From Bdellovibrionota bacterium (GTDB lineage Bacteria > Bdellovibrionota > FAC87 > UBA2466 > JACKAF01): DNA of 64,000 bases. This document shows positions 9,479-53,753 of this stretch, piece after piece. Location: positions 104,360-168,359 of the forward strand of contig JAWKNY010000003.1 of NCBI GenBank assembly GCA_041391485.1. The letters are read 5' to 3'. A program made the position numbers and the translations under genes. Positions within the stretch are counted from its first letter, which is position 1; each line of letters starts with the position of its first letter. The notes under the pieces were generated by a model. The model was given only the letters and a program-made list of their open reading frames with translations. It had not been told where the DNA came from and ran no database searches.

Positions 9479-9537
9479 ACAACTGAGAGACAAAAGCCGC
9501 CAACGAAGGCGGGCAAAACATTTTTAGGAGGTCTGAC

Positions 9538-28858: not shown

Positions 28859-29461
28859 ATGGAATTAGTCATGCAAACGCCTGCCTTCAGGGCGGGCAGG
28901 CTTTGGTTTAAGTACCGGGGTTTGTCACCGGTACCTGTCTTACTCTTCGTTTTGGTGATGCCCATCGTATGGGTGCCCCCGGTAACGTCGCGCTACTTGT
29001 TGATAGGGCTGATCCTGGCGTCAGAGGCTCTACGGGTCTGGGCAGTCGGGTACGCCGGAAGCGTTACCCGCACACGGCAGGACGCGGTGAATTCGCTGGT
29101 ATGTGCCGGACCGTTCCGCTATGTTCGCAATCCGCTCTATATTGCGAATATCACCATGTACGTATCCTGGGCCGTTTTGTTTGGTTTGGGAACCTACGCG
29201 GTGCTTGCTGCTGCTTTTTTTGTGATCCAGTACTCGCTCATCGTTCGCTATGAAGAAGGCATTTTGACAAGTACGTTTGGCGAGGCGTACCGGGAGTATC
29301 AAAAGCGGGTGCCACGTTGGTTCCCGAGGTTGAGCCGCGCTTCGAAGGCTAGTGAGCACCCCTTCCAGTTGGTGCCGGCGCTTAGAAGCGAACGTAGCAC
29401 GTTTGTTGCGATGGCCCTGACCGCCGTGGCTTGCTGGTTGAAAGTACGAGGTTTTTACTAA
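28859..29461 (+). CDS. isoprenylcysteine carboxyl methyltransferase (ICMT/PEMT) family membrane methyltransferase
   Basis: Multi-TM; conserved RYVRNPLYIANITMYVSWAV...EEGILTSTFGEAYREY block. Confidence 0.65.
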   Translation: MELVMQTPAFRAGRLWFKYRGLSPVPVLLFVLVMPIVWVPPVTSRYLLIGLILASEALRVWAVGYAGSVTRTRQDAVNSLVCAGPFRYVRNPLYIANITMYVSWAVLFGLGTYAVLAAAFFVIQYSLIVRYEEGILTSTFGEAYREYQKRVPRWFPRLSRASKASEHPFQLVPALRSERSTFVAMALTAVACWLKVRGFY

Positions 29462-31672
29462 GCGGCTTCCGAGTCGCTGGAGGGCTGCGCCTCGGCTTTC
29501 TTGGGCTGCATGTAGTACCGGTATGCGGAATCCAGACTAGCTTCCAGGCGCGTGTTGGTAAGCACCGTGTAGAGTGGCGCCCCGTCTTTCCGATGCAGAT
29601 CAATCATTCGCGCCGATTCCATGAGCTCCGAAGTAGTAATCGAGCCCTCGGGTACGGCGAAGAGTACCGCGTCGGAAGATTCAATCAAGATGCCGGTTTC
29701 CACAAAGTAGATAGGACCCGCGTCGACAACCACATAGTCAAAATGCTGTTTTGCGCGTTGTAGTAACGAGATCAGATCTTTCTGCAGATTCATGACATGT
29801 TCTTCCGAAGTTTTACCTCCGGGAGAGATGGGGCAGACTATCAGGTTTCGGTTGCCGCGCCATTCGTTCAGAGTCTGGTTTTTGATTAGATCCATCACCC
29901 ACGCAAGACTCTGGGCGACTGAGTAGTTTGCCCCCACGCTGACGGAAGTAATTCATCAGCTTTCGATTGGTGGCTTGGTTGTCGCCGTCAACGAGTAGGA
30001 CTTTCTTGCCGAGCTTGGCTAGCGCTGCAGAAAGGGCTGTGGCTGTAATCGTTTTACCTGCCATCGCTCTTGAACTGCAAACCAGCACAATTCGCTTTGA
30101 GGAAATGGTGCGCATGAGGCGAAACGCGAGTTGAGCCGTTTGAAGATTTTCCTCAAAACCCATTGAAAGAATTTTGCGTTTTAACGAGCGAATGTGTGGA
30201 AACTTTCCAAGGTACATCGGGCTCTGAAACGACTTCAGCTGTGAAGATCCCACGATAGTTTCTCGGTATATGTCCAATCCCACAATTCCACCGATTATGA
30301 GAAGCGTGACGGCAAAGCTCAATAGAACGAGTTTCTTCGTCTTGCTGGCGCCCAAGATATTTGAGTCCAGCATTGGATCCTGCAAGATTACTAATTTGCT
30401 GGTTCGGACATCTCCCTGGGTGATCACCGCAAGGTAATTCTCAGTGAGTACCTGTTGCATTTTTGCATATTGTTTTTGTACGAAGAGGAGCTGTTCTAGC
30501 TTTGCCTCGAGTTCGGGGTATTTGTTCATTTCAGACTTGTACGAATTCACCTGTCGTTTCACTTCTTCGTACATCGCCTTTGCACCTTTTTCTTCTGCTT
30601 CAGCGATTTGCACCATGCTTAGGGCCTTCTCCAAACCTTGTTGGAGTGCCCCGGTATCGTAGAACTTCTCGGTGTCCATTTCCTCTGAGAGCTGACTTCT
30701 CAGTCTGCGCAAACGCCGAGAGACATCCGCCTGTGACGCCGAGGGGAGGCCACTTTTCTGCTGACTCAAGAGAGCTGCTTCAAATTTTGCAATTTCTGTC
30801 ATGAGGGCGCGGATGCGAGGTTCATTGGTTTTGCTGACGCTTTCTTTCATCTGGGTTTTGAGTTTGCTTACCAGATTGCGCGTTTGAACCAGCCGCACGC
30901 TTTTTTCGGCAATGATCTGTTCTGCTTTGGCCATGGCACGTTGCGCTTCAATATAAGCTCGATACCGTTCCTCTAGCAGCTTCTCCCGGTGGGGCAGGTT
31001 GTTTTGACGAACGAATTCAGCGATAGCTTCGTTGGCTTTCTGAAGGTTATCATTTGTTTCTTGGACTTTTCTTTCAAGGAAGTCCGATACTTTCGCGGAA
31101 CGTTTTGCGGCGATTTCCAGATTGAGATCCAGCAAGGATTCGCCTATCAACTTTGAGATGCTAAGTGCCTGTTCCGGACTAGAACTTTTGAAGCCTATGG
31201 AAAAGTTTCCTCCCTGAATATCAGTTGTGAACGAAGTTCTAGCTAGAAAGTCAAAGTAGCCCCAATCGTAGAGATTGGCTGAAATCTCGTGCTGCTTCCC
31301 GAGGATGATGTACCTGACTATATCTTGGAGAGCGACTTCAAGGCCGGTTGAAGCGGGCTTAATGACTTGCTTTTTTTGAGTCAGCTTTTCTTTTACCGCA
31401 TTGTACACGGGATAGGACGCAACCAACGCCCTTTGAGTGAGGATGAGGTCCGTTCGCTCTCGATCCTTGAAAAGACCGGAGAACATTCCTCGGGTTTCTC
31501 CCAAGGTGACCTCAGGAATTGAAACAAAAATTTGGGTGCGAGCGATGAATTCGGCGGATAGGCTGCGGACAAATAGAATGAGAAAAAGATACGCGATCAG
31601 GCACGCGCCAATAACCCGGAACTTCCGGAGGCGGATTAGATTCGTAATTTGTTCAACTAAGGCCTTATCCAC
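29458..31672 (-). pseudogene. polysaccharide co-polymerase / BY-kinase (Wzc-like tyrosine autokinase), one frameshift near 29940
   Basis: 619-aa ORF has a Wzz-like periplasmic domain, coiled coil, TM and Walker A (MAGKTITATALSAALAKLGKKVLLVDGD); the 159-aa ORF in another frame carries Walker B DYVVVDAGP and a C-terminal tail. Confidence 0.7.
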
Positions 31673-33651: not shown

Positions 33652-34647
33652 CTAAGCCGCTTTGGATTCTCCGACGCTATTTTGAAGGTACCATTGGACG
33701 GTGTTGGCGATCCCTTGCTCTAGTGAATACGGGGCGGAAAAACCTTCTTTGTGTAGGTACGCACTAGAGAAGTGGGACGGCGTATTCAGCTTCTTGATTC
33801 GCTTTCCAGTGATAGGAAAATCTTTTCCTGTGGCGACGGCTAAGCCGTCTAGCAACTTGCCGAACGGAAAAGCAACGGTAAGGGGGATGCTAAGACGGGG
33901 GAGTTTGAAATTTCCCGACGAACATATCTGGTGAATGAGTTCCCATGAACTCACGCTCGGCTCATCGACTAAATTGAAAGTGTGGTGTTGCAGCTCTGGC
34001 CGCAGAAGCAGGTGAATCGTCGCCGCGACTACGTTTCCTATGTAAACAATGGACTTTACTTCGTTCAGCTTCCCGACACGTACGAAGTGGCCCTTGTCCA
34101 AAGTGCGAATGAGCCGGTAAAGGTTGTGAAGGTTCCCGGGACCGAAGATGTTCGTTGGTCTGATGATAAGCGCCCGCCGATCGGGCGCGGCGGCTCCCCA
34201 TTTCAGAACCTCTTGTTCGGCTGCCAACTTGCTCTTGCCGTAGTCCGAAAGAGGTTTCGTTTCCCCCTTCTCATCGATGGGATTTCGGCTATTGCTGGGA
34301 CTGTAGACCGCAACCGAGCTAAAAAAGACGAAGGTTTTCACGCCGTGCTCGGATGCTGCTTCCAACAAGGTGCGCGTTCCTTCTACATTGATTTCATAGT
34401 ATTCAGAGGCGCGGACCCCGAAGTCTTTGTGCGCGGCGGCCAGGTGGATAATGCCATCGCGGCCGTCTAGGCACTGTTTCACTAGTTTCTTATCGAGGAT
34501 ACTACCGACGGCCCGACTGGCCAGGGCTTTTCCGCCTGGTACGGTATCGAGTCCATGCAACTTGGCACCGCACGCTTGAAGCGCGGGACAAAGAGCCTGG
34601 CCTACAAATCCACTAGATCCCGTAATGAGGAGTGATGAAAAACGCAT
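33652..34647 (-). CDS. NAD-dependent nucleotide-sugar epimerase/dehydratase
   Basis: N-terminal Rossmann LLITGSSGFVGQAL; catalytic YGKSK (YxxxK); 331 aa. Confidence 0.8.
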   Translation of the reverse strand: MRFSSLLITGSSGFVGQALCPALQACGAKLHGLDTVPGGKALASRAVGSILDKKLVKQCLDGRDGIIHLAAAHKDFGVRASEYYEINVEGTRTLLEAASEHGVKTFVFFSSVAVYSPSNSRNPIDEKGETKPLSDYGKSKLAAEQEVLKWGAAAPDRRALIIRPTNIFGPGNLHNLYRLIRTLDKGHFVRVGKLNEVKSIVYIGNVVAATIHLLLRPELQHHTFNLVDEPSVSSWELIHQICSSGNFKLPRLSIPLTVAFPFGKLLDGLAVATGKDFPITGKRIKKLNTPSHFSSAYLHKEGFSAPYSLEQGIANTVQWYLQNSVGESKAA

Positions 34648-34732: not shown

Positions 34733-36030
34733 TTAGGCGTTTCCGGCTTCACTGCCAGACACTTTGACGCCATATTTGGCCAAAAGCCTATCGAAAACAT
34801 CGATCACATGGTCGAGATCTTTCTTTTCGTGACGGGTCTGCAAAGCCAATCGAAACACGGATTTGTTTTTTGGGACGGTTGGGTAAACGGCGGGGAAAGT
34901 GAAAATTCCTCGCGAATCAAATCCTGGGTGAAGGAAACATGATGCAGCCATGCTCGCGATGTAAGCAATCGGAACGGAGGCCGTCTCGTTCCCATCAAGC
35001 GAGCGCCCACTGCTGCAAGCCTTGGCTAAGTAGCGTACGTTGTCCCAAAGGCGTTCCCGCAGACTGGAGTCTTGCTCCATGATGTCCAGCGCTGCTGAGA
35101 CCCCCGCGATGAGCAACGGCGGGAGCGCGGCGCTGAATATGATTTTCTTGAACATAATTGAGATAGGTAATCACTTTGTTTGGCGCAAGAAAAGCCTCCG
35201 GTCGCACCGAGCGATTCTACTGAATGTCCCTCCAATGATATCCACTTCAGAGGACAATCCAAATTTTTCGCAAACCTTATGCCCTTTTTCACCGTGGACC
35301 TAGTAGCTGGAGTGAGCCTCGATTCACCAAAGCCGTGCGCCGTAATTTCTGCGGTATTGCCAGCTTGAGGATTTCGGGCAGCCGCGCGACATCCCTGTCC
35401 ATGCTGTACGCGCCTTCCACGATAACCAAATTCCGGATTTGGAGTCCTTATTGCGGGCCCGCTGCAAGGTGCTCTCCAGGCGTTCGGGGGAATTATGCGC
35501 AAAGATTCGCACCGTAGCGCCGCAGCTTTGGGCGCCTTCAAGGATAAGCGTGAGAAGAGCTATCGATCAAAAACGCGATCGTCCCGGTGGGCAAGCAGCG
35601 CGCTGGTGCGGCGATGGCATCAAAACCCGTCGGAAAGAGCAGGGCGGCTTCCTGCCGAAGGAATGCGCCAGCTTTCTCTTCCAAGAGCCGGTGCATGTAC
35701 GAATAACCGTTCCGGACTCTGGAGCTGCCGGCCCTACCCCATACCCTTCAAGCAGCGCTGGATGGCGTCGTGAACGGGTGATCGGTCAGACAGGTTAAGG
35801 TAATGTTGCTGGCGAGCATGATCATTGTGCGTTTTTCGCCAAAAAATCTCCATAGTTACGGTAGGTCCCGGGGCGATTCGATGGGGGACGCTGTACTGCA
35901 TGATTCCGTGTTGACGCAACGAGTCAATCACTCCGGAATAGGCGCGGGCCTTGGCGAAAACATCGCTGTGATCGACGCCGAGCTGGGCACAATGTTGATT
36001 GACAAGATAGTCTCGGTCCGAGATTAAATA
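34733..36030 (-). pseudogene. alpha-oxoamine synthase (KBL/AONS/SPT/CqsA-like class II aminotransferase), multiple frameshifts
   Basis: C-terminal 140 aa (34733..35155) align with the KBL C-terminus (LRERLWDNVRYL...FTFPAVYPTVPKNKSVFRLALQTRHEKKDLD). The 35026..35541 frame carries AHGFG...ISLEGHSVESLGATGGF, the PLP-lysine block with K apparently replaced by E. The 35760..36030 region in a third frame reads DRDYL...SVPHRIAPGPT (N-terminal AOS block). Confidence 0.6.
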
Positions 36031-36267
36031 GCTTGGGCAGAGAGCTGCTCCTCAAAAGAGTAGGTTGCTGTTGTGGTTCTCGTCCATCTGTCCCGTGAGG
36101 GGTGGCAGTGTGTGTCATTTCCCCGCAATTTTTCTCCGACTCATTAGATAATGGTTGGCTGAATTGCTGCCAACCATTATTTTGTGCGTTTGGAAATGAA
36201 TTCCCATGTCCACAGGTGGGGAAAGCAATACTTTGTTTGGACAACACCGGAACTGAGGGAACGTAAT

Positions 36268-37137
36268 GGGTTCAACACAAGATGAAGTGGAAGTTTCTGT
36301 ATGGCGTCAGCAACGACTTCTTCAAACTCTGGCTAGACGAGCGGATGAATTACACTTGCGCTTTGTTTGAAGATACCGAGAACTACTCTCGACAATTTCG
36401 AGCAGGCCTTTAAGACAACAAACTGCGCCGTTTAAGCCGCTTTGCGAATATCGGACCGCACACGGAAAGCGTGCTCGATATTGGCTGCGAGGGCGCTAAC
36501 ATCGAATACCAGGCATTGGTCAACAAAGTGCCCGACGTTCATGGCTTTACGTTAAGTCCGGAGCAGGCCAAAAAGTGCCAGAGCGCAATCTCCCCAACAC
36601 AACGGCTACTTGCGACGATTACAAGACTTATCAGCCGCCTTCGGAAATTTGATGCCATCATCAGCATTTGCATGATGGAGCACATCGTGTCTCCAGAAGA
36701 CGCGCGAGCCGGTAAAGCGATTGATCTCTATCGTGATTACTGAAGGGCCTATGAAATGGAAGCAACCCGGAACTTACTTCGGTTTGCAAACCATTACCCG
36801 CTGCCAAGTGCCGCGAAACAAGAAGGACTTGGATGATCTTCGCCACGCCACCTACGTGATCTTCCTCCCGGGTGCCGTGACACCCAGAGTGGAAGACATC
36901 ATTGTGGCAACCATCCTGTATTTTGAAGTGATGGAATGCACATTCCATGTGTTTTCACTATCGCAAGACCCAGAACACTGGCTAATCCTGCCTTCAGAAA
37001 AATGAATCCTTGATTCGCGAGAAGTGGGGCAGCCAGGTTTATGAAGACTACGATCGGTACCTATCGACGTGCATTAAGGCGTTTGAAAACAACTGGCAGT
37101 CGTTGCATCAGTATTCTCTGAAACGACTGGATTAACT
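36268..37137 (+). pseudogene. cyclopropane-fatty-acyl-phospholipid synthase-like SAM methyltransferase, at least 4 frameshifts and a degenerate SAM motif
   Basis: Across 4 frames: ...LYGVSNDFFKLWLDERMNYTCALFED (HYDLSNDFF block), DNKLRRLSRFANIGPHTESVLDIGCEGA (VLDIGCGWG block, glycines lost), FDAIISICMMEHI (motif II), YVIFLPGAVTP..., LIREKWGSQVYEDYDRYLSTCIKAFENNWQSLHQYSLKR (CFAS C-terminus). Confidence 0.6.
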
Positions 37138-37159
37138 GTAAGACGGATGGAGGCCCACC

Positions 37160-37405
37160 GTGGGTGAGACTGAAGTACTTTCTATGTTCACGCGCATCGC
37201 GAAGGAAGTTGAAAAAGATAAGAAATTTCCTGAGATAACGATGGACACCAAGATATCTGCACTAGGGATCGACTCTCTTTCTATGATGGAAATCGTGGGA
37301 GCGATGGAAGACGAGCTTGATGTGGTGATTCCGGATGAGAAACTGGCGACTCTGCAAACGGTTGCCGACATCGATCGTGTTATTCGTGAGCAAACGAACG
37401 CCTAG
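37160..37405 (+). CDS. acyl carrier protein
   Basis: 81 aa; phosphopantetheine-attachment motif LGIDSLSMMEIV; acidic helical composition. Confidence 0.8.
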   Translation: MGETEVLSMFTRIAKEVEKDKKFPEITMDTKISALGIDSLSMMEIVGAMEDELDVVIPDEKLATLQTVADIDRVIREQTNA

Positions 37406-37419
37406 TTTTAAAAACGAGG

Positions 37420-39165
37420 TTGGGAGTGCGTGAACGGATAGACTGTTCCACGTTGGTCGATCTGGTTCTTTCCAGAGCTGAGGCCACGCCGGAGCAACAT
37501 AGCCATATTTTTCTGCGAGATGGGCAATCTGACGAGCAGGTTGTGACCTATGCCGATTTGGATCGAAAGGCGCGGGCCTTGGCCGTAGCGCTAGCCCAGC
37601 ATACTTCTCCGGGCGATTCGGTTCTTATCAATCACAATCCGGGTCTCGAATACGTTTGCTCTTTTTTTGGTTGTTTGTATGCCGGCGTCGTAGCGATCCC
37701 GGTTTATCCCCCGCGTTTCAATCAGAAGTTGGAACGCCTGGATTCGATTGTCCGTGAAGCGCTTCCTCATGTGGCGCTTACTTCGGGCGGCATTCTCGAT
37801 AACCTTTCTCCGCATTTCGAAGCGCACCCGCTATTGAAGAACCTGCGCTGGATCGACACCGAGAAAGTCACCGCCCATTGGCGCGACTGGGTTCGACCTG
37901 ATATTTCGGCAAACTCCCTTGCCTTTCTCCAGTACACTTCCGGTTCCACCTCGCAACCCAAAGGGGTCATGCTGAGTCACGGAAATCTACTGAGTAATCT
38001 GGAATGTATTAGTGAGGCTTTCGAGGTTCACGACGGGAGTTCCGCTTTTTCCTGGTTGCCTCCTTACCACGACATGGGACTCATTGGCGGGATTCTAGAG
38101 CCGATTTACGCGGGCATTCCCGTTACCATGATGTCGCCGTACACGTTTTTGATGCGGCCGTTCCGGTGGTTGCAAGCGCTCACGAAGTACAAAACCACGT
38201 TTTCTGGGGCGCCCAATTTTGCCTACGAGCTCTGCACAAACAGAATCACTGAAAAGCAGATGGGCGAATTGGACTTGAGTCACTGGGAGCTAGCTTATTG
38301 TGGGGCCGAACCCATCCGAGCGGACGTTCTACAGCGATTTTCCGATAAGTTTTCGGCCGTGGGTTTCAAGGCCGAGGCGCTCTACCCCTGCTATGGCTTG
38401 GCCGAGTCGACGTTAATGGTAACCGGGGCGCACCGCCGCAAGGCACCCGTTATCGGTTACTTTGATCGGAAGCGTTTAGAGAGTGAAGGCCGTGGTGTGC
38501 ACACCGATCAGACCGTAGGGGCGAATGCTTTGGTGAGCTGCGGGAAAACTGTCGTCGACCACGAGGTGGCAATTGTAAATCCCCAAACTCTCGAGCGCTG
38601 TCCAGAGGGCTCGGTAGGCGAGATTTGGGTAAGCGGTCCTTCCGTGGCCCAGGGTTACTGGAAGCAGCCAGAGTCCACGTCACGTACTTTCGGCGTAAGT
38701 CTAGAGGGATCGGACAAGACCTTTCTCCGTACCGGGGATCTGGGTTTTCTTTTCGACAACGAACTCTTCGTAACGGGCCGCATCAAGGATATGGTAATTA
38801 TTCGTGGCCGCAATATTTTTCCCCAGGACGTCGAGCGGACGGTAGAACTGAGCCACCCTTCGTTGAAGGTCGGCTCGGGCGCGGTGGTTTCAGTCGAAAA
38901 GGGTGGGGAGGAGCGGCTGGTGATCATCCAAGAGGTCGCCCGCCAGGCTTTGCGCGAAGTGGACCTCGACGAAGTAGTCGAGAGCATCAAGAATCGGGTA
39001 GTTGAGGAATTTGGGATCAAGCCTTATGCTATTAGCTTAATCAAATCCAATAGCATCCCTCTTACGAGCAGTGGAAAGGTGAAGCGCCAGGCTTCGAAGC
39101 TGCAGTTTCTGCAAGGGGAACTGTCAGAGCTCAAACGGGTTTTGGAAATGACGGAAGCGCCATGA
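37420..39165 (+). CDS. fatty acyl-AMP ligase (FAAL-type adenylation enzyme)
   Basis: FLQYTSGSTSQPKGVMLSHGNLLSN adenylation motif; FAAL-like N-terminus (TYADLDRKARALAVALAQH) and insertion region; 581 aa; directly downstream of the ACP. Confidence 0.8.
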   Translation: MGVRERIDCSTLVDLVLSRAEATPEQHSHIFLRDGQSDEQVVTYADLDRKARALAVALAQHTSPGDSVLINHNPGLEYVCSFFGCLYAGVVAIPVYPPRFNQKLERLDSIVREALPHVALTSGGILDNLSPHFEAHPLLKNLRWIDTEKVTAHWRDWVRPDISANSLAFLQYTSGSTSQPKGVMLSHGNLLSNLECISEAFEVHDGSSAFSWLPPYHDMGLIGGILEPIYAGIPVTMMSPYTFLMRPFRWLQALTKYKTTFSGAPNFAYELCTNRITEKQMGELDLSHWELAYCGAEPIRADVLQRFSDKFSAVGFKAEALYPCYGLAESTLMVTGAHRRKAPVIGYFDRKRLESEGRGVHTDQTVGANALVSCGKTVVDHEVAIVNPQTLERCPEGSVGEIWVSGPSVAQGYWKQPESTSRTFGVSLEGSDKTFLRTGDLGFLFDNELFVTGRIKDMVIIRGRNIFPQDVERTVELSHPSLKVGSGAVVSVEKGGEERLVIIQEVARQALREVDLDEVVESIKNRVVEEFGIKPYAISLIKSNSIPLTSSGKVKRQASKLQFLQGELSELKRVLEMTEAP

Positions 39166-40164
39166 GAACGCTGCAAGAATTAATGAGTGCGACAGCCCCC
39201 TTTGCAAAAGAGGACCTGCGCAAAAGCTGGTGGCATCTGATTTCGACGTCGATCGTGTTGGGATTGTTGCTGGTCGGGACCTTGAGTCCGCTTCCTCTTG
39301 TTTTGCGAATTGTGATGAGCTTACTCGCGGGTGGCGTGACGGTACGGATGTTCATCATCTATCATGACTACCAGCACGGAGCGATTTTTCGTAACTCGTT
39401 AGCTGGCCGTCGATCATGAACACTCTCGGGGTCTCGGTTTTAAACCCTCCGAATATCTGGAATCGTTCTCATAATCACCACCATAGTCGCAATTCGCAGA
39501 TTGCCACCGCCAGTATCGGCTCGTTTCCCATTATGACGGTAAGCGAGTACGCGAAGGCACCTTGGCAAGCGCGTCTGCGCTACTGTTTGAGCCGCAGCCC
39601 GTTACCGTTTTTATCGGGGCATGTACTTATCTTTGTGGTCGGTATGTGCCTTAGCTCGTTTGTGAAGGATCCCAGAAAACATTGGGATTCGCTCGTGGCT
39701 CTCCTTGTTCATGTGGCACTTATTTGGGGGCTGGTGCATCTAGCCTTACGGCACTTGTATTGGCCTACCTTCTGCCTTTGTACGTGTCGTGTATGCTCGG
39801 GGCCTACCTCTTCTACATCCAACACAACTTCCCATCGATGCAGCTGAGACCCCGTGAGGAATGGACATTCTTGTTTGCGGCGCTAAACTCCTCGTCCTTC
39901 ATGGAAGGAAGCGCATTTGTGCATTGGCTAACGGGGAATATCGGTTACCACCATGTTCACCATCTAAATTCCCGTATCCCGTTTTATAGGCTGCCTGAAG
40001 CGATGGCAGCCATACCGGAGCTTCAGAACCCAGGTCGGACCTCGCTTCGTCCTCGGGAGATTGTGCGTTGTCTGAAACTCAAACTCTGGGACCCTCGGCG
40101 CAATCGAATGGTTTCGTTCGCTGAGTGTCACCCGGTGCGGCTGCTAGCGCCGGACTTCCAATAA
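39162..40164 (+). pseudogene. membrane fatty-acid desaturase (three His-box di-iron type), two frameshifts
   Basis: Three ORFs in three frames carry His box 1 (HDYQHGA), His box 2 (WNRSHNHHHS) and His box 3 (GYHHVHHLNSRIPFYRLPEA); frame changes near 39410 and 39700-39840. Confidence 0.65.
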
Positions 40165-40199
40165 ATTCCCTAACTTGAATTTGCTTTGCTGCCGATAAC

Positions 40200-41942
40200 A
40201 AAGCTGGAGCTTTTTAACCATAGCTCTCGTGAGTAGTCTTGAAGACCTCTTGTGAACGCCATCTGAATTTGGCCTCGGCCTTTACAAGGCGAGGGGCGTC
40301 TAGTCTGGTGGATTCCTTTTCTTTTCGCCGCCAGTGGGCTGATGGAGTCCTCAAGCATCATCATCCTTTTCACGACTAATTTCGTTTCTTCCGTGCCGGG
40401 AGTCGGGCCGCACGGCGCAGCTAGCGGAGCGGATTTCCGGATTTTCGATTCCACTCATGGGGTCGGGGCTTTTGTAGTCATCTATGGTGTTTCGGCCCTA
40501 ATGCAGTACTCGATCCACGTTTTAGAAGGGATCCAGTCATCACCCATGTCGAAATGAAGCGTCGAGCGACGATCATTTCCGATGTCCTTAGGGCGCTGAG
40601 TGGTCGCATTTGAGTTCGCTCTTTGAGGTTGAACGTGCATGTTCTTCTTTCCGGCGCCTTGTACTCTCTTCGCATGGGACTGACCGCACTGCTCGCGATG
40701 GCTTCCTGATGGATTGGTTCTGCTGCGTTTGTAGCCATTGCTTTTGTGACCTCCTCTCCCTTGTTCTGGGAGCTTTGGTCGCTGGCTTGGCATACTTGGT
40801 AGTTTACCTGCGCATAACACGGACGATCCGTCTGAATGCGTCGGAGTCACCACGTGCCCACAGCGAATTACATCGAGAGTACGGGACATCCTGCACAATC
40901 TGAAACTATGGAAAGTTAGTGCTGATACTGAGCGTATCAACCTCAAACCTGAATCCAGCGTTGCAAGAGATAAAAAAAATCGAAGTAACATCCAAGATTC
41001 TGCTTAAGAATCGATTCATGTTTTTGGTGCTCGGTGGTTTTTTTGTGTTTGTTCTCACGCTAACTCGATTCTCACTTCAGGTTCGGCCATTAGCTCTCTT
41101 GCGATCATCGTTCTTTTCCTTCGTATGTCGACAAAGTTTTCAATATCCAATCGGTAGTTCTGTCGATGGCACATCACTATCCTGTGGTGAGATGCTAGTC
41201 GATATGAAAGGACATCCAGAATCGTAAAGTGGAACCGCTTGCAGGCACGTGCAAACAACCCCTAAAAACAGCGAATGGTTTTCGAGCGTAGCGTCTTTAT
41301 CCGAGCAATGGCCAGAGTGTGTTTACCGACTTGAACTTGGTACATTGAGAGGGGACAATTCGGGGGGATTTTAGGGCCTTCAGGGATTGGGAAATCTACT
41401 TTGCTGACCTGATTGTGGGTTTGCACCGGACAGCGGAACTGTTTCGTGGATGGAAAACCACTTCCGGTTTCGATCTCTTTACTGGAGGCGAAGCATCGGA
41501 TTCCTCACTCAGGACGCCCCACTCGTCAGCGGAACAGTCCGAGAAAATATTCTCTGGGGGGCAGAGTACGACAGAAGAGCAATTCCGCCGTTCGCTCAGC
41601 GATGCGAACCTCTCTGATTGGGTATACTCATTGCCCAAAGGCATTGATGCAAAAGTTACCTCGGGCGGTATTCAGTTTTCTGGAGGGCAACGCCAGCGGC
41701 TGGCTCTTGCCCGGGCACTCTATAGAAAAGCCTCTTTGCTCCTGTTGGACGAGCCAACCAGTTCGGTTGACAAAGAAAGTGAAAGACAAATCCTGAAAGC
41801 CATCGATCAACTTAAGGGAAACACGACCATTGTACTGATCACTCACAATCAGCAGATTCTCAAGTCGGCAGATGCCGTTTATACAGTCTCCAAAGGCGGA
41901 GTTGTGCGCCTTGAAGAAAAGTCGATCAGCGGTGCTGCATAG
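40200..41942 (+). pseudogene. ABC exporter (fused TMD-NBD), heavily degraded; only the C-terminal 175 aa of the NBD remain as an ORF
   Basis: 41415..41942 encodes the ABC signature LSGGQRQRLALARAL, Walker B LLLLDEPTS and H-loop ITHN. Walker A GILGPSGIGKSTLL is readable at about 41370 in another frame followed by a stop. 40200-41340 has no coherent ORF (decayed TMD) and locally low GC. Confidence 0.5.
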
Positions 41943-44740: not shown

Positions 44741-46508
44741 TCAACATAGAGTCGACACACTCCTCCTCCCGGCGCGCAAGAAGTACCAGAAATCACGTTG
44801 AGTAACGATTGTAGTTAGAATCAAACCGCAAATCCATAACAGCCCCAGCGGCTGCTGCATAATCCAGAATTGATGTACTGCATTATCGTTAGCGAAAAAG
44901 AAAAGATGCCGGTGTTCCTGGTTGATGACGTAACCAATGAAAGGCGGCGATTGGGATTCCGGTGGCGGTCTAAATATGATGACTGCCGATCGCGGTAATC
45001 CGTTGGAATCTGGCCACCGGCTAGTCGGATTCTCCCGACTGCGAGAACGTTCGCCGGGGGTGTTGCATTGACAAGAAAAGTGTCTTGCCATCGTCACTAA
45101 AGCAAGGACCGGTGAATTCCGCCTCTCTTGGGGCGGACGCCATTTGGACTGCTCGGCCTGCCGCTGGCCCCGAAAGGGGGACGAGGAAGAGCCCGTTGTT
45201 CTTGAACGATGCGTACGGCGACGAGCCAATCGCACTTCCGGAGATATCAGGTGAACCAAAGATCCCCATGTGCATCGAATACGACGTTGTCGGGGCAGGA
45301 AAATCCGGTAGATTCCCCGCCGGTCATGAAGGTAGAGGACGAAAATTTTAGAGAACCTGACGTTGTTTTGCTCCTCTACGCGAAGGAGCGTGCCAAAGTG
45401 GTTTCCTTGGGGGCGGTTGTTTGTGAGAGCGACAAAGGCGGCACCCGTCTTTGATCCAAAGCACTCCTCAGGGTCGATCCAGCAGCAGTCGCCCCCACTA
45501 GGTGGGCGGCCTCGCGTGCGCGTGGATTAGCACGTCCAACTGATCCTTATACTTGTTCTGTAGGGCGGTGTGTTCCTCTCGAAGTAGCGGAATCCATCGT
45601 CCGCCACTCGTATCCGCGGCGTATAAGATGCCCGATTCCGAATTGTTGCTCCTTGAGACACCTGGAAGAGGTGGCAATTTGGTCCTCGGAGTCGTCCCCA
45701 GAATATAAAACGGCCCGCCCGTCCTTTGCCCGTGTGACCGTGGCGCCTTCGTGAGCGAATCGGCCGCCCGCCACAAGCTTCTTTGCTTTTCCATTTTTCG
45801 GGTCCACCCCCCGACTACCCAACCGTAGTGCTCAGGCGATCGGGGGAATACCGACTCCCAGCCGTACAAACTCGCCGCTGTTCCGTCACTATAGAAGTTG
45901 TCGTAGTTTTCCTCACAGGTAAGGACTGTATTCCATGGGGTGAGCCCGCCACTGCAATTTGCGAGTGTTCCAGTAGCTGCCCTGCTTCCTTTTATAGTGT
46001 GCCCTCCAGCGAACGGGATTTCGGTGGCTCCCGTCAGCCGTTTGTTTTTGGGAGAATTAGAAACGACTCGCCATTGCCCTGTTGTTTGACGCTCAATGTG
46101 GAGAAAGGTTCCGCCCACAGCATCCATTTCCTGAAGAACTTCACTTTTCCCACGCGGCCTTTCTGGCCGCTAAAAAGCGTTAAATGGACCGGTGTTTCGT
46201 GGTTGACCCAGAGAAGCGCTTCATTTTTGGATTGGGAGATGAAAGCGATAAAATCGTTGTCATTGAAGCGAACTTCGCCCTTCTTGTTCAGGGGGATTCC
46301 AACCTCGCAATTACGGAGTACCAGGCCTGGAGCCAAAACAACTCGATCCTCTGAATTGGGTGCCAGACCAAATGGAGGCTCGACACTTTGTTTGCCTGAG
46401 GAAGCCCAACGCGGCCTTTGTTGTCAGGCCGATCACTCCCAGGTGGAGCGCGGCCGAGGTACGGCCCATGAATCTAAGGAATTCACGTCGGTTGAGGTAG
46501 TTGTCCAT
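44741..46508 (-). pseudogene. Tat-secreted PhoX-type alkaline phosphatase (DUF839), multiple frameshifts
   Basis: Twin-arginine signal NRREFLRFMGRTSAALHLGV (46311..46508); LWVNHETP block; NCSGGLTPWNTVLTCEEN (PhoX NCAGG.TPWGT.LTCEE) in a different frame; at least 4 frame changes across about 1.77 kb. Confidence 0.6.
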
Positions 46509-46598
46509 TTGGTACTCCAGAATTGGGCAGATTCTAAAAGGTACGTATTAAAGTCGCAATAATACTTTGTAAATTGTTGAAGGTGTTGGAAGCGAGGT

Positions 46599-48517
46599 CT
46601 AGGTTGCACTCAGTCGGTGGGTTTTTACAAATGAGGCCAAGCAGGACAGAGCAAGGACTCTACTGGCGTGCCCTCGGCTTGTTGAATCCGATTCAAACTG
46701 CTGCCAGACCTTTCTGGGCAACTCAGTGTTGATCCCCAGGCCTCTCCACAGTTCCTGGTCCTCTAAATAGGAAAGGAGCAAGTTCCGTAGGGGGCCTCGT
46801 AGCCAAGCGGCCCAAGGGAGGTGGAACCCCTGCTTTTTTCGCAGGTAGATTGCCTTCGGAAGGTCTCCGACAGCGTCGACTAGAAGTGGCTTTGGGTAGT
46901 CCGCAGGGCGTTTCCATTTGCCGGGAACTCCGATCATGTACTCGAGAAGACTCCGACTTAGGAAAGGTACACGGAGTTCCAGGCTGTTCGCCATGCTGAA
47001 GTTGTCGCAGTCCCTGAGAAGAACATAGCGTAAGTAGGTTTGAAGCTCGATGAGAGAAATCTGAGTTTCGGGGGCGAATCCTTGGACACTTCCTCTCAGG
47101 CTCTCTACGAGAGAGTCATCGACTCCGCTGGTGTAGCAAAGAGTGGGAGCTTGCTGCGGAAACGAAAGGTGCTGTTCCCGAACAAAAATCTCGCGCCTCA
47201 ACAACTGAAGATCCACAATGTGACTACGACGGACAAATACGGAGGCCATCTTGTCAGCGTGCATAGAGGGTACTTGGCGCGCCAAAAAAGCTAGTGCCAC
47301 TCGTGCAGGTCCAAAGAGGTTCGAAATTTTTCTCAAGCGCAAGGCCAAGGGGACTTGCCAGAAGGTCGGGTACCCTCCAAAGAGCTCGTCTGCACCGAGC
47401 CCGGAGAGGACTACTTTTAGGCCAGCTTCACGTGCTGCTTTAGAAACCAAAAAAGTATTGAAACCATCTATACTCGGTTGGTCTAGTTTCTCTAGAAACG
47501 TGGGAAAGTCGTCAAGTAGATCCTTTTCCGTGCGTCGAATGAAGTGGTGATGCATTCCAAGTTTCTTCCCCAATTCTTTTGCGAGCCGGCTCTCATCCAG
47601 ATCGGTCTGCTCGAATCCGAGAGTGATGGCATCCAATCCCCTTTGCACTTTGCTGGCAAGGATAGCAAGTGCGCTTGAATCAATTCCACCGGACAAAAAC
47701 AAACCCACGGGTACATCGGAAACAAGGTGCTGCTCCAACGAGTTCTGTAGTAGCTCACGGATGTTCTGGACACAGGTATTTCGATCCGAAGGGATCTCTC
47801 GGTGGTCGGCTGTCGGCAGCTTCCAGTAAGGAGTTGGGGACTCCATTGTTCCGTCTTGGCGAACGAAAGAATAGGTCCCTGGCTCGAGGGAACGAATCCC
47901 CGCCACTAGGGTTTGGCTCCCCCACACGGATCCTTGGGCAAAATAGGAGCTAAGTGCGGAGCGATCGATCTGGCGCTCAATCCAGGGCTCACCTAGCGCC
48001 AGTAGGGAGCGCACCTCAGACGAGAAAAACAATCCTCCTTTGGGTGAGCGATAATAGTACAAGGGCTTTATTCCCATCCGGTCACGACACAACCAAAGCC
48101 TTCGGTGATCGGCATCCCAGAGGGCGAAAGCGAACATTCCTTCCAATTGATGGACGGCTGCGGGTCCCCAGGCCCGATAGGCCTTAAGAATCACTTCGGA
48201 ATCGCTTTCCGTCTCGAAGTGGTACCTCCAAGCGTGAAAGTTTATCTTGTACGGCGCGGAAGGATTTCCCCGTTGTACGTCAACCAGTTCTTGTCACCAC
48301 CCGTTGCTGAGCTGTCTGACATGGGCTGGTGTCCGCCCGGCGAGAGATCAAGGATAGAGAGTCGTGTGTGACCGAGTACGACTGAGGCTGTTTCATTCTG
48401 AATGCTTTGGACGCCTATGTCATCCGGACCACGGTGGCGTAGCGCGCTACTCATTTCATTTACGAGAGGTAGGGCTAGGGCGTTTGAAAGGCCGATGGAA
48501 CCTGCGATGCCGCACAT
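46599..48517 (-). pseudogene. asnB: asparagine synthase (glutamine-hydrolysing), one frameshift between 48194 and 48242
   Basis: N-terminal class-II GATase MCGIAGSIG...RGPDD (91-aa ORF) plus a 531-aa body with FAFALWDADHRRLWLCRDRMGIKPLYY and PP-loop SGGIDSS. Confidence 0.75.
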
Positions 48518-48562
48518 ACAGATAACGATAGCATGGCAAAATGAAAGGCAGAAACGTTTAGC

Positions 48563-51727: not shown

Positions 51728-51820
51728 TCCACGGCCCCGGGCGGTGAGTCTTCACTGTTTTATCGGCAATTTCGAGCGCTTAGATTAGCGAGACTGGGAC
51801 AAGGTGGCGCTATGCATCAT

Positions 51821-52528: not shown

Positions 52529-52574
52529 ATTCTCGCCTCCGGAGCCACAGTGGTTTTCGTGGTAAGATCACTCT

Positions 52575-53722: not shown

Positions 53723-53753
53723 AGGAGGATTCTTTGCCCGTGATCTTCGGGCG

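What the first reader, a model, noticed from the sequence alone, without database searches (positions are those of the whole stretch)
34733..41942. Decaying FAAL-ACP-alpha-oxoamine-synthase lipid cassette with desaturase, CFAS-like methyltransferase and ABC exporter
Six co-localised genes look like a pathway for an amino-lipid / sphingoid-base-like or alpha-hydroxyketone (CAI-1/LAI-1-like) metabolite. Candidate steps: FAAL activates a fatty acid, ACP carries it, an alpha-oxoamine synthase condenses it with an amino acid, a desaturase and a CFA-synthase-like methyltransferase tailor it, and an ABC pump exports it. Intact 81-aa ACP and 581-aa FAAL genes sit between neighbours with multiple lesions. 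The AOS has at least 2 frameshifts and an apparent K-to-E change at the PLP lysine (GHSVESLG where GTFSKALG is expected). The CFAS-like gene has at least 4 frameshifts and GCEGA in place of GCGWG. The desaturase has 2 frameshifts. The exporter TMD is unrecognisable, with Walker A followed by a stop. GC is locally lower around 40.2-41.3 kb. This looks like a horizontally acquired specialised-lipid locus captured mid-decay; an intact version in relatives might encode an undescribed lipid or signal.
Basis: partly seen in the sequence, partly recalled or inferred. Interest (0 to 1): 0.7.

Follow-up and report, generated by a model that had tools for sequence, protein, structure and literature searches.

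The report
Decayed sphingolipid-like lipid gene cassette
This stretch of a Bdellovibrionota metagenome genome is a broken copy of a lipid-making gene module that is intact but unstudied in related predatory bacteria. Only the fatty-acid-activating enzyme and its carrier protein are still kept working here.

Summary
All six family assignments hold (Pfam).

**State of each gene, compared with intact syntenic copies in two sister MAGs (L081, L082):**
- AOS: about 20 frameshifting indels, a stop, and loss of the PLP-binding Asp and Lys.
- CFAS-like methyltransferase: 7 frameshifts, and GCGWG changed to GCEGA by a 3-nt deletion.
- ABC exporter: about 19 frameshifts and near-neutral substitutions.
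- Desaturase: only two 1-nt deletions.
- ACP and FAAL: intact, with the same purifying-selection signature as their relatives.

**These are real pseudogenes, not indel errors.** Amino-acid change is accelerated only in the window lineage: AOS 28 versus 3, CMAS 11 versus 1.

- The "K-to-E" change is a +1 insertion inside the Lys codon.
- The cassette is not a recent foreign island. Its five-gene core (AOS | MT-ACP-FAAL-desaturase) is conserved across Bdellovibrionota.
- The ABC gene is clade-specific and may belong to the surrounding polysaccharide locus.
- The AOS is closest to serine palmitoyltransferase, not to CqsA.
- The window holds about eight other disrupted genes (SMC, PhoX, UGDH and others), so decay is not confined to this locus.

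**Likely function of the intact module:** FAAL loads the ACP, and an SPT-like condensation then makes a desaturated, methylated sphingoid-type base. This is inferred, not shown. No description was found in the searchable literature.

The parts
34733..36118 (-). Pseudogene of an SPT-like alpha-oxoamine synthase (intact orthologue 455 aa)
   Evidence: PF00155 at 74.6 bits on the stitched product. 21 indels against L081. One in-frame stop, the PLP Asp lost, and the Lys codon split by a +1 insertion. Window-specific amino-acid changes 28 versus 3.
36119..36265 (.). Divergent intergenic spacer. It is far more conserved than the flanking genes and holds a 21-nt-arm inverted repeat at 36139-36189.
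   Evidence: 96% mean column identity among the window, L081 and L082, against about 78% for the cassette. Inverted repeat found. RNA fold z-score -3.35 on the + strand. No Rfam family.
36266..37135 (+). Pseudogene of a CFA-synthase/CMAS-like SAM methyltransferase (intact orthologue 288 aa)
   Evidence: PF02353 at 77.4 bits. 10 indels, 7 of them frameshifting. GCGWG changed to GCEGA by a 3-nt deletion at 36490. Window-branch substitutions by codon position 21/11/56, against 6/0/54 and 4/1/54 in the relatives.
37160..37405 (+). Intact acyl carrier protein (81 aa), DSL phosphopantetheine site present, GGAGG Shine-Dalgarno 6 nt upstream
   Evidence: PF00550 at 42.4 bits. The protein is identical to that of sister MAG L082 (both accessions under one exact sequence) despite synonymous divergence. 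RBS seen.
37426..39165 (+). Intact fatty acyl-AMP ligase (579 aa from GTG 37426 as deposited; the longest ORF starts at TTG 37420)
   Evidence: PF00501 plus PF23024. 566 bits, end-to-end, against FAAL structure 7R7E; next hit is FAAL 3KXW. No indel against L081/L082 except 3 nt at the stop. Window-branch substitutions 31/12/112, against 29/15/109 and 22/10/126. The exact protein is deposited as MEZ4749740.1.
39162..40164 (+). Membrane fatty-acid desaturase disrupted by two 1-nt deletions (39406, 39735). The three His boxes are intact. Either a recent pseudogene or two assembly errors.
   Evidence: PF00487 at 85.3 bits on the stitched product. Indels. No accelerated amino-acid change (5 versus 6). 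Modest excess at codon position 2 (23 versus 10 and 6).
40240..41942 (+). Heavily decayed fused TMD-NBD ABC exporter pseudogene (intact orthologue 569 aa)
   Evidence: tblastn pieces in three frames at 35-47% identity. About 21 indels, and substitutions 134/96/149 against 36/34/109 and 46/19/86. Walker A followed by a stop. PF00005 on the last 175 aa.

Best explanation
**What it is**

The region is a decaying copy of a gene module conserved in Bdellovibrionota. The module is an SPT-like alpha-oxoamine synthase (AOS), divergently transcribed from an operon of CFAS-like methyltransferase, dedicated ACP, fatty acyl-AMP ligase (FAAL) and membrane desaturase.

**How the intact module most likely works (inferred, not shown)**
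1. The FAAL adenylates a long-chain fatty acid and loads it on the dedicated ACP.
2. The AOS condenses the acyl-ACP with an amino acid, most likely serine, with loss of CO2. This gives a 3-keto long-chain base.
3. The membrane desaturase introduces a cis double bond.
4. The CFAS-like enzyme adds a SAM-derived carbon at that bond (a methyl, methylene or cyclopropane group).

The product would be a modified sphingoid-type amino lipid.

**What has happened in this MAG (shown)**
- The pathway has been dismantled in steps. The adjacent ABC gene is most decayed, then AOS, then the methyltransferase. The desaturase carries only two 1-nt deletions.
- ACP, FAAL and the divergent regulatory spacer remain under purifying selection. 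They therefore probably still serve some acylation reaction.

**Shown versus inferred**
- Shown: the family assignments, the lesions, the lineage-specific relaxed selection, the retained constraint on ACP/FAAL, and the conservation of the cassette in relatives.
- Inferred: the substrate, the product and the order of tailoring steps.
For: **Families and intact relatives**
- Family assignments.
- An intact syntenic cassette is present in sister MAGs GCA_020435265.1 and GCA_020435295.1.

**Lesions and selection**
- Lesions were mapped base by base.
- A relative-rate test used two outgroups. Window-specific versus L081-specific changes were AOS 28 versus 3 (p=5e-6), CMAS 11 versus 1 (p=0.006), FAAL 4 versus 7, DES 5 versus 6 and ACP 1 versus 0.
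- Codon-position spectra for FAAL and ACP on the window branch equal those of the relatives. The ABC gene is near-neutral.
- Third-position divergence on the window branch is the same in FAAL (0.194), CMAS (0.196) and DES (0.199). The intact segment is therefore not a recent import.

**Conservation of the module**
- The core AOS|MT-ACP-FAAL-DES is present in L001-L004, L083-L085 and a JGI contig.
- About 19 contigs appear in both the FAAL and the AOS hit lists, judged by matching contig lengths.

**Support for the FAAL to ACP to AOS chain**
- A Blastocatellia MAG encodes a single 1102-aa FAAL-PP-binding-AOS protein.
- Trichodesmium erythraeum IMS101 encodes an ACP-AOS fusion directly after a FAAL.

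**Support for an SPT-like, sphingoid-type product**
- The best solved relative is S. multivorum SPT: 268 bits, against about 213 for KBL or cysteate acyltransferase and 135 for CqsA.
- GTFSKSLG and the His, Asp, Ser and Asn contacts described for that enzyme are conserved (PMC10196870).
- A variant cassette (L086) replaces the methyltransferase with an FA_hydroxylase-family gene (PF04116). From my own knowledge, that family includes sphingolipid hydroxylases.
- An ACP-dependent SPT with a dedicated acyl-ACP synthetase is established in Caulobacter and other Rhodobacteria (PMC9386255).
- Cyclopropane-bearing sphingoid bases exist in Sphingomonas (PMC2444003).

**Support for continued use of ACP/FAAL**
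- The spacer is 96% conserved.
- Shine-Dalgarno sites precede ACP and FAAL.
Against: - No AOS family model is reached. The NCBIfam SPT equivalog scores are 327, 315 and 238 bits, against cut-offs of 640, 500 and 670. The bioF model scores equally well, at 330 against 426. Amino-acid specificity is therefore open.
- No ceramide synthase or 3-keto reductase gene is seen within about 10 kb in any locus examined.
- The CFAS-like subfamily has Gln where canonical cyclopropane synthases have the bicarbonate-site His, so its chemistry is uncertain.
- The source is a MAG, and reads could not be inspected.
- Several other genes in the window carry single frameshifts. The two 1-nt deletions in the desaturase could therefore be assembly errors.
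- What acyl-ACP would be used for once the AOS is dead is unknown.
Confidence: 0.6

Rival explanations
1. The frameshifts are assembly or sequencing errors in a MAG, and the cassette is actually intact and functional.
For: The window comes from a MAG. At least seven other genes in the window, including SMC and HSP20, carry what look like single frameshifts. The sister MAG L082 has a 4-nt indel splitting its FAAL. The desaturase has only two 1-nt deletions and no accelerated amino-acid change.
Against: AOS and CMAS carry one indel per 65-90 nt, against none in the 2 kb of ACP plus FAAL between them. The indels are not in homopolymers. Window-specific non-synonymous change is 9-11 times that of the sister lineage in AOS and CMAS, and near-neutral in the ABC gene. 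Catalytic residues are substituted and in-frame stops are present. Indel-type errors would not produce these features, nor would they spare one gene pair exactly.
Confidence: 0.06
2. The intact module makes an alpha-hydroxyketone (CAI-1/LAI-1-type) signal, as the first reader offered as an alternative.
For: CqsA and LqsA are AOS-family enzymes that use fatty acyl thioesters. The AOS matches the NCBIfam autoinducer-synthase model at 220 bits.
Against: That score is far below the cut-off of 428 and below the SPT, BioF and KBL scores. CqsA structures score 135 bits against 268 for SPT. No cognate sensor kinase is adjacent in any locus. The housekeeping genomic context and the 72-81% conservation of AOS and the methyltransferase across families fit a structural lipid better.
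Confidence: 0.05
3. The AOS condenses the acyl-ACP with an amino acid other than serine (glycine, alanine, cysteate or another). The product would then be a 1-deoxy-sphingoid, a sulfonolipid-like lipid or some other amino-lipid or natural product, not a true sphingoid base.
For: No SPT equivalog cut-off is met. The generic BioF/Kbl models score as well as the SPT models. Gly80 and Ala79 of S. multivorum SPT, which line the substrate side-chain pocket, are Ser and Gly here. Cysteate acyltransferase is the second-best solved relative.
Against: SPT is clearly the closest solved relative, by 54 bits. Most of the contact residues compared are conserved.
Confidence: 0.25
4. The cassette is a recently acquired foreign island now being purged.
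For: In this clade the cassette lies in a polysaccharide locus. In Pseudobdellovibrionaceae it lies instead in the L25-Pth-YchF / hydrolase context, so it has moved at some time. The ABC gene has no orthologues elsewhere.
Against: The site and flanks are the same in three genomes whose synonymous sites are about 50% diverged. GC matches the window. The nearest relatives of every core gene are other Bdellovibrionota.
Confidence: 0.08
5. ACP and FAAL are intact only by chance or because too little time has passed. They are not under selection.
For: The desaturase next door has only two lesions, so decay is uneven.
Against: About 24 frameshifts would be expected at the AOS/CMAS rate and about 4 at the desaturase rate (P about 0.02). 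None is observed. There is no excess at codon positions 1 and 2 on the window branch. The ACP protein is identical to that of a sister MAG. The upstream spacer is 96% conserved.
Confidence: 0.04

Closest known systems
Spt-AcpR-AasR system of Caulobacter crescentus and other Rhodobacteria (PMC9386255)
   Same: A dedicated ACP and a dedicated adenylate-forming fatty-acid-activating enzyme are encoded next to an SPT-type AOS. [quoted passage not shown]
   Different: Here the activating enzyme is a canonical FAAL, 55% identical to the cyanobacterial FAAL structure 7R7E. It is not shown to be an AasR orthologue. The AOS belongs to the Sphingobacterium-like branch, which that paper describes as distinct from the rhodobacterial one. 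A desaturase and a CFAS-like methyltransferase are in the operon. No bCerS or CerR gene is adjacent.
Serine palmitoyltransferase of Sphingobacterium multivorum (PDB 3A2B / 8GUH)
   Same: It is the closest solved relative (268 bits). The GTFSKSLG Lys motif is identical. His138, Ser185, Asp210, His213, Thr241, Asn52, Tyr54 and Ser81 are conserved in the intact orthologue.
   Different: The intact orthologue has an N-terminal extension of about 60 aa. It differs at Ala79->Gly, Gly80->Ser, Phe83->Val and Met271->Ile. It scores about half the NCBIfam SPT cut-off. S. multivorum SPT is described with palmitoyl-CoA as acyl donor, and I did not examine whether it has a dedicated FAAL or ACP.
Chain tailoring of sphingoid bases: fungal delta-8 desaturase plus C9-methyltransferase (a CFA-synthase-family enzyme; my own knowledge, not tested here), and the cyclopropane-containing sphingoid bases of Sphingomonas (PMC2444003)
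   Same: A membrane desaturase is paired with a CFAS-family SAM methyltransferase alongside an SPT-like enzyme. A cyclopropane-bearing long-chain base is documented in bacteria.
   Different: No orthology to the fungal enzymes was tested. The bacterial subfamily has Gln in place of the canonical bicarbonate-site His. Neither the product nor the regiochemistry is known.
FAAL-ACP-AOS fusion proteins in Acidobacteriota, Planctomycetota and cyanobacteria (for example Blastocatellia MAG L005; Trichodesmium erythraeum IMS101 L077)
   Same: The three activities are the same. Here they are physically fused or directly adjacent.
   Different: The AOS domains are only about 30% identical to the Bdellovibrionota AOS. 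There is no desaturase or methyltransferase. These proteins were not found described in the literature searched.
CqsA/LqsA alpha-hydroxyketone autoinducer synthases
   Same: AOS fold and a fatty acyl thioester substrate.
   Different: The similarity is much weaker (135 bits; 220 against a cut-off of 428). There is no adjacent sensor kinase.

Membership tests
alpha-oxoamine synthase (PLP-dependent, PF00155 subgroup) | Pfam PF00155 match above the gathering score | tested here: met
   The stitched window product scores 74.6 bits against a cut-off of 19.7. The intact L081 orthologue is annotated PF00155.
alpha-oxoamine synthase (PLP-dependent, PF00155 subgroup) | Intact PLP-binding Lys (GTFSK) and the Asp that contacts the pyridine N (VD[ED]AH) | tested here: not met
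   In the window the Lys codon is split by a +1 insertion at about 35217, and VDEAHS reads W*IEAHS. Both motifs are intact in L081. The window copy is therefore a dead member.
serine palmitoyltransferase | Reaches an NCBIfam SPT equivalog cut-off | tested here: not met
   The intact orthologue scores 326.8/640 (CFB type), 314.7/500 (beta type) and 238.2/670 (alpha type).
serine palmitoyltransferase | Closest characterised or solved relative is an SPT, with active-site contacts conserved | tested here: met
   268 bits against S. multivorum SPT, with the next-best family at 214. Most of the contact residues compared are conserved. This is a resemblance only.
serine palmitoyltransferase | Condenses L-serine with a long-chain acyl thioester to give 3-ketosphinganine | not testable with these tools
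   Needs an enzyme assay or lipidomics.
ACP-dependent sphingoid-base synthesis (Spt-AcpR-AasR type) | Dedicated ACP with a phosphopantetheine Ser, encoded next to the AOS | tested here: met
   PF00550 with a DSL motif, at 37160-37405. The ACP is adjacent in every cassette examined.
ACP-dependent sphingoid-base synthesis (Spt-AcpR-AasR type) | The dedicated acyl-ACP synthetase is an AasR orthologue | not tested
   The adjacent enzyme is a FAAL. No AasR sequence was compared.
ACP-dependent sphingoid-base synthesis (Spt-AcpR-AasR type) | Ceramide synthase (bCerS) and reductase (CerR) genes in the locus | tested here: not met
   No such gene is seen within about 7-10 kb of the cassette in L081, L083, L085, L086 or the JGI contig. 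The adjacent SDR epimerase at 33652-34647 is not linked to the AOS in relatives. Whole genomes were not searched.
fatty acyl-AMP ligase | AMP-binding N-domain plus a FAAL-type C-domain, and closest solved relatives are FAALs over the full length | tested here: met
   PF00501 at 229.5 bits and PF23024 at 38.7 bits. 7R7E at 566 bits over residues 11-569; 3KXW at 459 bits.
fatty acyl-AMP ligase | Reaches an NCBIfam FAAL model cut-off | tested here: not met
   The best FAAL subfamily model scores 446.6 against a cut-off of 775. The deposited name is nevertheless 'fatty acyl-AMP ligase'.
cyclopropane-fatty-acyl-phospholipid / mycolic acid synthase family (PF02353) | PF02353 match and a SAM-binding GxGxG (GCGWG) | tested here: inconclusive
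   PF02353 scores 77.4 bits against 27. In the window GCGWG is destroyed (GCEGA) by a 3-nt deletion. It is intact in L081-L085.
cyclopropane-fatty-acyl-phospholipid / mycolic acid synthase family (PF02353) | Canonical bicarbonate-site His (aligned with the His of LLHTIT in MmaA2 and LIHGIT in L. acidophilus CFAS) | tested here: not met
   Gln (GLQTITR / GLQAITR) in all five family members aligned. The Cys, Glu, Ile and Tyr positions appear conserved. Identifying this His as the bicarbonate ligand rests on my own knowledge.
membrane fatty-acid desaturase (PF00487) | Three His boxes and an uninterrupted reading frame | tested here: inconclusive
   HDYQH, HNHHH and HHVHH are all present, and PF00487 scores 85.3 bits. 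The frame is broken twice by 1-nt deletions.
CqsA/LqsA autoinducer synthase | Reaches the NCBIfam PRK07179 cut-off, with an adjacent cognate sensor kinase | tested here: not met
   220.1 bits against a cut-off of 428. No kinase in any locus.
ABC exporter belonging to the lipid cassette | Co-conserved with the core cassette across genomes | tested here: not met
   Absent from L001-L003, L083-L086 and the JGI contig. The only orthologues are in L081 and L082, and the next hit is at or below 31% identity.

The most novel reading that the evidence does not exclude
Bdellovibrionota possess a previously undescribed route to a desaturated, methyl-branched or cyclopropanated sphingoid-type lipid. In it a true FAAL, not an AasR-type synthetase, charges a dedicated ACP for an SPT-like enzyme. 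In this MAG the route has been dismantled stepwise. The FAAL-ACP pair and its conserved regulatory spacer have been kept because they were co-opted for another acylation, for example of the surrounding polysaccharide, whose locus includes an MBOAT gene at 50315-51727.
Probability: 0.2. Interest if true: 0.6.

Novelty: new variant of a known kind. Interest (0 to 1): 0.4.

Why it matters
Bacterial sphingolipid-type lipids are known from few lineages, and their biosynthesis has been worked out only recently. This module is well conserved (AOS and methyltransferase 72-81% identical across families). It combines an SPT-like enzyme with a FAAL, an ACP, a desaturase and a CFAS-like methyltransferase in predatory bacteria. 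That makes it a concrete, clonable candidate for a new long-chain-base chemistry.

The decayed copy is a natural dissection of the module. It shows that FAAL plus ACP can be useful without the condensing enzyme.

The find is of moderate interest only. Pseudogenes in a MAG are ordinary in themselves, and the chemistry is inferred rather than shown.

Tried and rejected
- **Retrieving the source contig.** Exact look-ups with the look-up of encoding contigs on the epimerase and the FAAL found nothing on record. The listing of cluster members did identify the deposit.
- **Codon-usage scan for coding frames across the window.** It was too insensitive to map pseudogenes, because many real genes fell below threshold.
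- **Promoter and terminator consensus scan over 34.5-42.2 kb.** It found fewer promoter-like sites than shuffles, so it was uninformative.
- **Rfam.** It was run on the whole window and, at permissive threshold, on the conserved spacer. Only tRNAs and spurious miRNA-hairpin matches appeared.
- **Literature searches pairing FAAL with oxoamine synthase, AONS or bioF.** No papers were found.
- **Nostoc 'SPT' paper (PMC8895605).** It proved irrelevant.
- **Conserved alpha/beta-hydrolase neighbour and the FA_hydroxylase.** Neither has a homologue in the window or in L081.
- **Recent recombinational replacement of the ACP-FAAL segment.** I considered this and rejected it. Third-position divergence on the window branch is the same as in the flanking pseudogenes.
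- **KBL plus SDR-type threonine dehydrogenase reading of the AOS-epimerase adjacency.** I considered this and rejected it, because the adjacency is not conserved in relatives.

Full report
**Observation**

ORF listing and three-frame translation show that the region has no long ORFs apart from two. These are an 81-aa ORF (37160-37405) and a 581-aa ORF (37420-39165). The flanking stretches 34.7-37.1 kb and 39.2-41.9 kb are fragmented.

- PF00155 on the stitched minus-strand fragments, 74.6 bits.
- PF02353, 77.4 bits.
- PF00550 on the 81-aa ORF.
- PF00501 plus PF23024 on the 581-aa ORF.
- PF00487, 85.3 bits.
- PF00005 on the last 175-aa ORF.

**Source and comparators**

Exact-sequence look-up shows the window comes from an NCBI MAG named 'Bdellovibrionota bacterium'. 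Its proteins are MEZ4749730 to MEZ4749753, on a contig of 243,907 bp.

The FAAL is 89-92% identical to proteins of two 'Bdellovibrionales bacterium' MAGs. Their contigs are L081 (GCA_020435265.1) and L082 (GCA_020435295.1). Both carry the same genes in the same order, and all are intact:
- AOS 455 aa on the opposite strand.
- CMAS-like methyltransferase 288 aa.
- ACP.
- FAAL 578 aa.
- Desaturase 335-337 aa.
- ABC 569 aa.
- A Wzy_C gene follows.

The upstream flank is also shared (Wzc-like kinase, a 174-aa protein and others). Nucleotide identity over the cassette is about 78%.

**Lesions**

Base-level alignment to L081 gives the following:
- AOS: 21 indels, 20 not multiples of three.
- Methyltransferase: 10 indels, 7 frameshifting.
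- Desaturase: two 1-nt deletions (39406, 39735) and one 3-nt deletion.
- ACP: none.
- FAAL: only a 3-nt difference at the stop codon.

In the three-way alignment the ABC gene has about 21 indels.

The indels are not homopolymer-associated.

Specific hits on functional residues:
- A G is inserted inside the PLP-lysine codon (A[G]AA, about 35217).
- VDEAHS has become W*IEAHS.
- GCGWG has become GCEGA by a 3-nt deletion at 36490.
- Walker A (GPSGIGKST, 41374) is followed by a stop.

**Real decay or assembly error?**

Three lines of evidence argue for real decay of AOS, the methyltransferase and the ABC gene.

1. *Substitutions by codon position.* In an unrooted three-taxon comparison, substitutions unique to the window branch at codon positions 1/2/3 are as follows.

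| Gene | Window branch | L081 | L082 |
|---|---|---|---|
| Methyltransferase | 21/11/56 | 6/0/54 | 4/1/54 |
| ABC | 134/96/149 | 36/34/109 | 46/19/86 |
| FAAL | 31/12/112 | 29/15/109 | 22/10/126 |
| ACP | 1/0/10 | 1/1/10 | 0/0/13 |

2. *Relative-rate test.* Two more distant cassettes (L083, L085) served as outgroups. Counts are window-specific versus L081-specific amino-acid changes.

| Gene | Window-specific | L081-specific | p |
|---|---|---|---|
| AOS | 28 | 3 | 5e-6 |
| Methyltransferase | 11 | 1 | 0.006 |
| FAAL | 4 | 7 | 0.55 |
| Desaturase | 5 | 6 | 1 |
| ACP | 1 | 0 | 1 |

3. *Lesion density.* At the AOS/methyltransferase frameshift density, about 24 frameshifts would be expected in ACP plus FAAL. 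None occurs.

Indel-type sequencing error explains neither the excess non-synonymous change nor the exact sparing of two genes.

Third-position divergence on the window branch is the same in FAAL (0.194), the methyltransferase (0.196) and the desaturase (0.199). The intact block is therefore not a recent import.

The degree of decay suggests an order: ABC first, then AOS, then the methyltransferase, with the desaturase last.

The desaturase case is weak. It has two 1-nt deletions, intact His boxes and no accelerated amino-acid change, so it could equally reflect two assembly errors.

**The decay is not unique to this locus**

The same window contains:
- an SMC gene split inside its hinge domain (18735-20441 / 20368-22332);
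- a split HSP20 (9487-10013);
- a UDP-glucose dehydrogenase whose Rossmann N-terminus is in another frame (23305-24640);
- a Wzc-like kinase with a 2-nt deletion at 29929;
- a multiply frameshifted PhoX (about 44.8-46.56 kb);
- an AsnB-like gene whose Ntn N-terminus is in another frame (46599-48560);
- a GT4 glycosyltransferase with a displaced N-terminus (52560-53722).

These are documented.

Either this lineage is accumulating pseudogenes generally, or the assembly has a background of roughly one indel error per 6-10 kb. I cannot tell which without reads. Either way, the lesion density in the cassette is two orders of magnitude above that background.

**Not a foreign island**
- GC of the cassette (0.517) matches the window (0.530). 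The 40.2-41.3 kb 'dip' (0.49) lies at the 9th percentile of 1.1-kb windows.
- The five-gene core, AOS | methyltransferase-ACP-FAAL-desaturase, recurs in Pseudobdellovibrionaceae and Bdellovibrionota MAGs (L001-L004, L083-L085, a JGI contig). There it sits next to housekeeping genes (L25, Pth, YchF), usually with an alpha/beta-hydrolase downstream of the AOS.
- Identities to the L081 proteins are AOS 72-74%, methyltransferase 76-81%, ACP 67-74%, FAAL 54-57% and desaturase 55-59%.
- About 19 contigs appear in both the FAAL and the AOS hit lists, judged by matching contig lengths.
- One variant (L086) has AOS | ACP-FAAL-desaturase-FA_hydroxylase and no methyltransferase.
- At about 62% identity the AOS occurs alone, next to IMPDH.
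- The ABC gene is absent from all these loci and has no orthologue beyond L081 and L082. It abuts Wzy_C and may belong to the polysaccharide locus rather than to the lipid module.

**What the intact module probably does**

*FAAL.* The FAAL aligns end to end with the solved FAAL 7R7E (566 bits) and next with 3KXW.

*AOS.*
- The closest solved relative is Sphingobacterium multivorum SPT at 268 bits. KBL and cysteate acyltransferase score about 213, and CqsA scores 135.
- The Lys motif GTFSKSLG is identical. Most PLP and substrate contacts described for that enzyme are conserved.
- No NCBIfam equivalog cut-off is reached, and the bioF model scores as well as the SPT models. The amino-acid substrate therefore remains open.

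*The FAAL to ACP to AOS link.*
- Domain fusions support a functional chain. A Blastocatellia MAG encodes one 1102-aa FAAL-PP-binding-AOS protein.
- Trichodesmium erythraeum IMS101 encodes an ACP-AOS fusion directly after a FAAL.
- The logic parallels the experimentally established Spt-AcpR-AasR system of Caulobacter (PMC9386255).

*Tailoring.*
- The desaturase is of the membrane, His-box type.
- The methyltransferase is a catalytic-domain-only member of the CFA-synthase family, about 30% identical to solved members.
- It has a family-conserved Gln where canonical enzymes have the bicarbonate-site His.
- Cyclopropane-bearing sphingoid bases are known in Sphingomonas (PMC2444003).
- From my own knowledge, fungal sphingolipid C9-methyltransferase belongs to the CFA-synthase family and acts after a delta-8 desaturase. 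This was not tested here.

I therefore propose, as inference, a desaturated and methylated or cyclopropanated sphingoid-type amino lipid.

**Retention of ACP and FAAL**
- Both genes keep Shine-Dalgarno sites.
- The ACP protein is identical to that of L082.
- The 147-nt divergent spacer (36119-36265) is 96% identical among the three genomes, although the flanking coding DNA is about 78% identical.
- The spacer contains an inverted repeat at 36139-36189, with a perfect 14-bp stem followed by a U-rich tract on the + strand.
- The spacer matches no Rfam family. More distant cassettes carry a different spacer, conserved among themselves.
- This suggests that the regulatory region and the FAAL-ACP pair are still in use. 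The acceptor of the acyl-ACP is unknown.

**Known or new?**

Full-text searches pairing FAAL with oxoamine synthase, AONS or bioF returned nothing. Bdellovibrio sphingolipid searches returned only reviews and SPT enzymology. All family members carry generic names.

I rate the intact module as a new variant of a known kind, namely ACP-dependent SPT-type long-chain-base synthesis. The window copy is its pseudogenised remnant.

**Verdict**
- Confidence that AOS, the methyltransferase and the ABC gene are true pseudogenes is about 0.9.
- Confidence that ACP and FAAL are under selection is about 0.9.
- Confidence that the intact product is a sphingoid-type lipid is about 0.45.
- Interest is moderate (0.4).

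Noticed in passing
window 36119-36265 (inverted repeat 36139-36189): The AOS-methyltransferase spacer is 96% identical among three genomes whose coding DNA is about 78% identical. It holds a perfect 14-bp hairpin followed by a U-rich tract, and matches no Rfam family. It could be an operator or an attenuator for the ACP-FAAL operon. More distant cassettes (L083, L085, L003) share a different conserved spacer motif.
   Followed up: partly
window 18735-22332 (+): The SMC gene is split into 568-aa and 654-aa ORFs that overlap at 20368-20441. The break lies inside the hinge domain (Pfam SMC_hinge starts at profile position 29 in the second ORF). This is a frameshift or an assembly error in a housekeeping gene.
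   Followed up: partly
window ~44800-46560 (-): A PhoX alkaline phosphatase is broken into many frames, so it is a second heavily decayed pseudogene. The TAT-like N-terminus and conserved blocks can be read in all three frames.
   Followed up: partly
window 9487-10013 (+); 23305-24640 (-); 29461-31672 (-); 46599-48560 (-); 52560-53722 (+); possibly 967-1556 (+): HSP20, UDP-glucose dehydrogenase, a Wzc-like kinase (2-nt deletion at 29929), an AsnB-like amidotransferase and a GT4 glycosyltransferase each look singly frameshifted. A TPR gene may be too. This means either genome-wide pseudogene accumulation or a background indel error rate in the MAG.
   Followed up: partly
L082 1333-3068: In the sister MAG GCA_020435295.1 the FAAL itself is split, into 179-aa and 424-aa ORFs, with a 4-nt gap in the alignment. 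Its methyltransferase, ACP, desaturase and ABC gene are intact.
   Followed up: no
L086 4200-9332 (GCA_023657465.1, labelled Xanthomonadaceae): A variant cassette: AOS | ACP-FAAL-desaturase-FA_hydroxylase (PF04116), without the CFAS-like methyltransferase. The neighbouring genes (S8 and trypsin-like proteases, Lnt) made me doubt the taxonomic label, from my own impression.
   Followed up: partly
L083 6463-7260; L084 3705-4502; L085 5779-6537; JGI 3300059473 contig: An alpha/beta-hydrolase of 252-265 aa lies downstream of the AOS: directly adjacent in L083, L084 and the JGI contig, and one gene away on the same strand in L085. It may be a sixth member of the module. There is no homologue in the window or in L081.
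   Followed up: partly
L081 8843-9709 and orthologues; window ~36780: The CFAS-like subfamily has Gln (GLQTITR) where the solved CFA and mycolic-acid synthases aligned have His. This hints at non-canonical chemistry.
   Followed up: partly
L005 9965-13273; L077 9926-13860; also L006, L008, L041, L053, L059, L065-L067, L075: FAAL-ACP-AOS is encoded as one 1102-aa protein in a Blastocatellia MAG. In Trichodesmium erythraeum IMS101 it appears as a FAAL followed by an ACP-AOS fusion. An AOS lies just downstream of the FAAL in about 11 loci from other phyla. I found no description of these in the literature searched.
   Followed up: partly
window 33652-34647 (-) vs L081 4396-5388: The SDR epimerase next to the AOS is only 63% identical to its L081 counterpart, while neighbouring genes are about 89% identical. 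It also sits at a different position in the locus, which points to rearrangement or replacement within the polysaccharide locus. The L081 GT1_4 gene (208 aa) looks truncated compared with the window's 422-aa GT.
   Followed up: no
window 48563-54530: The polysaccharide locus continues downstream: GT2, an unassigned 311-aa protein, an MBOAT O-acyltransferase (50315-51727), a polysaccharide deacetylase, GT4 and a CHGN-like transferase. The MBOAT is a speculative consumer of carrier-protein-bound acyl groups.
   Followed up: no
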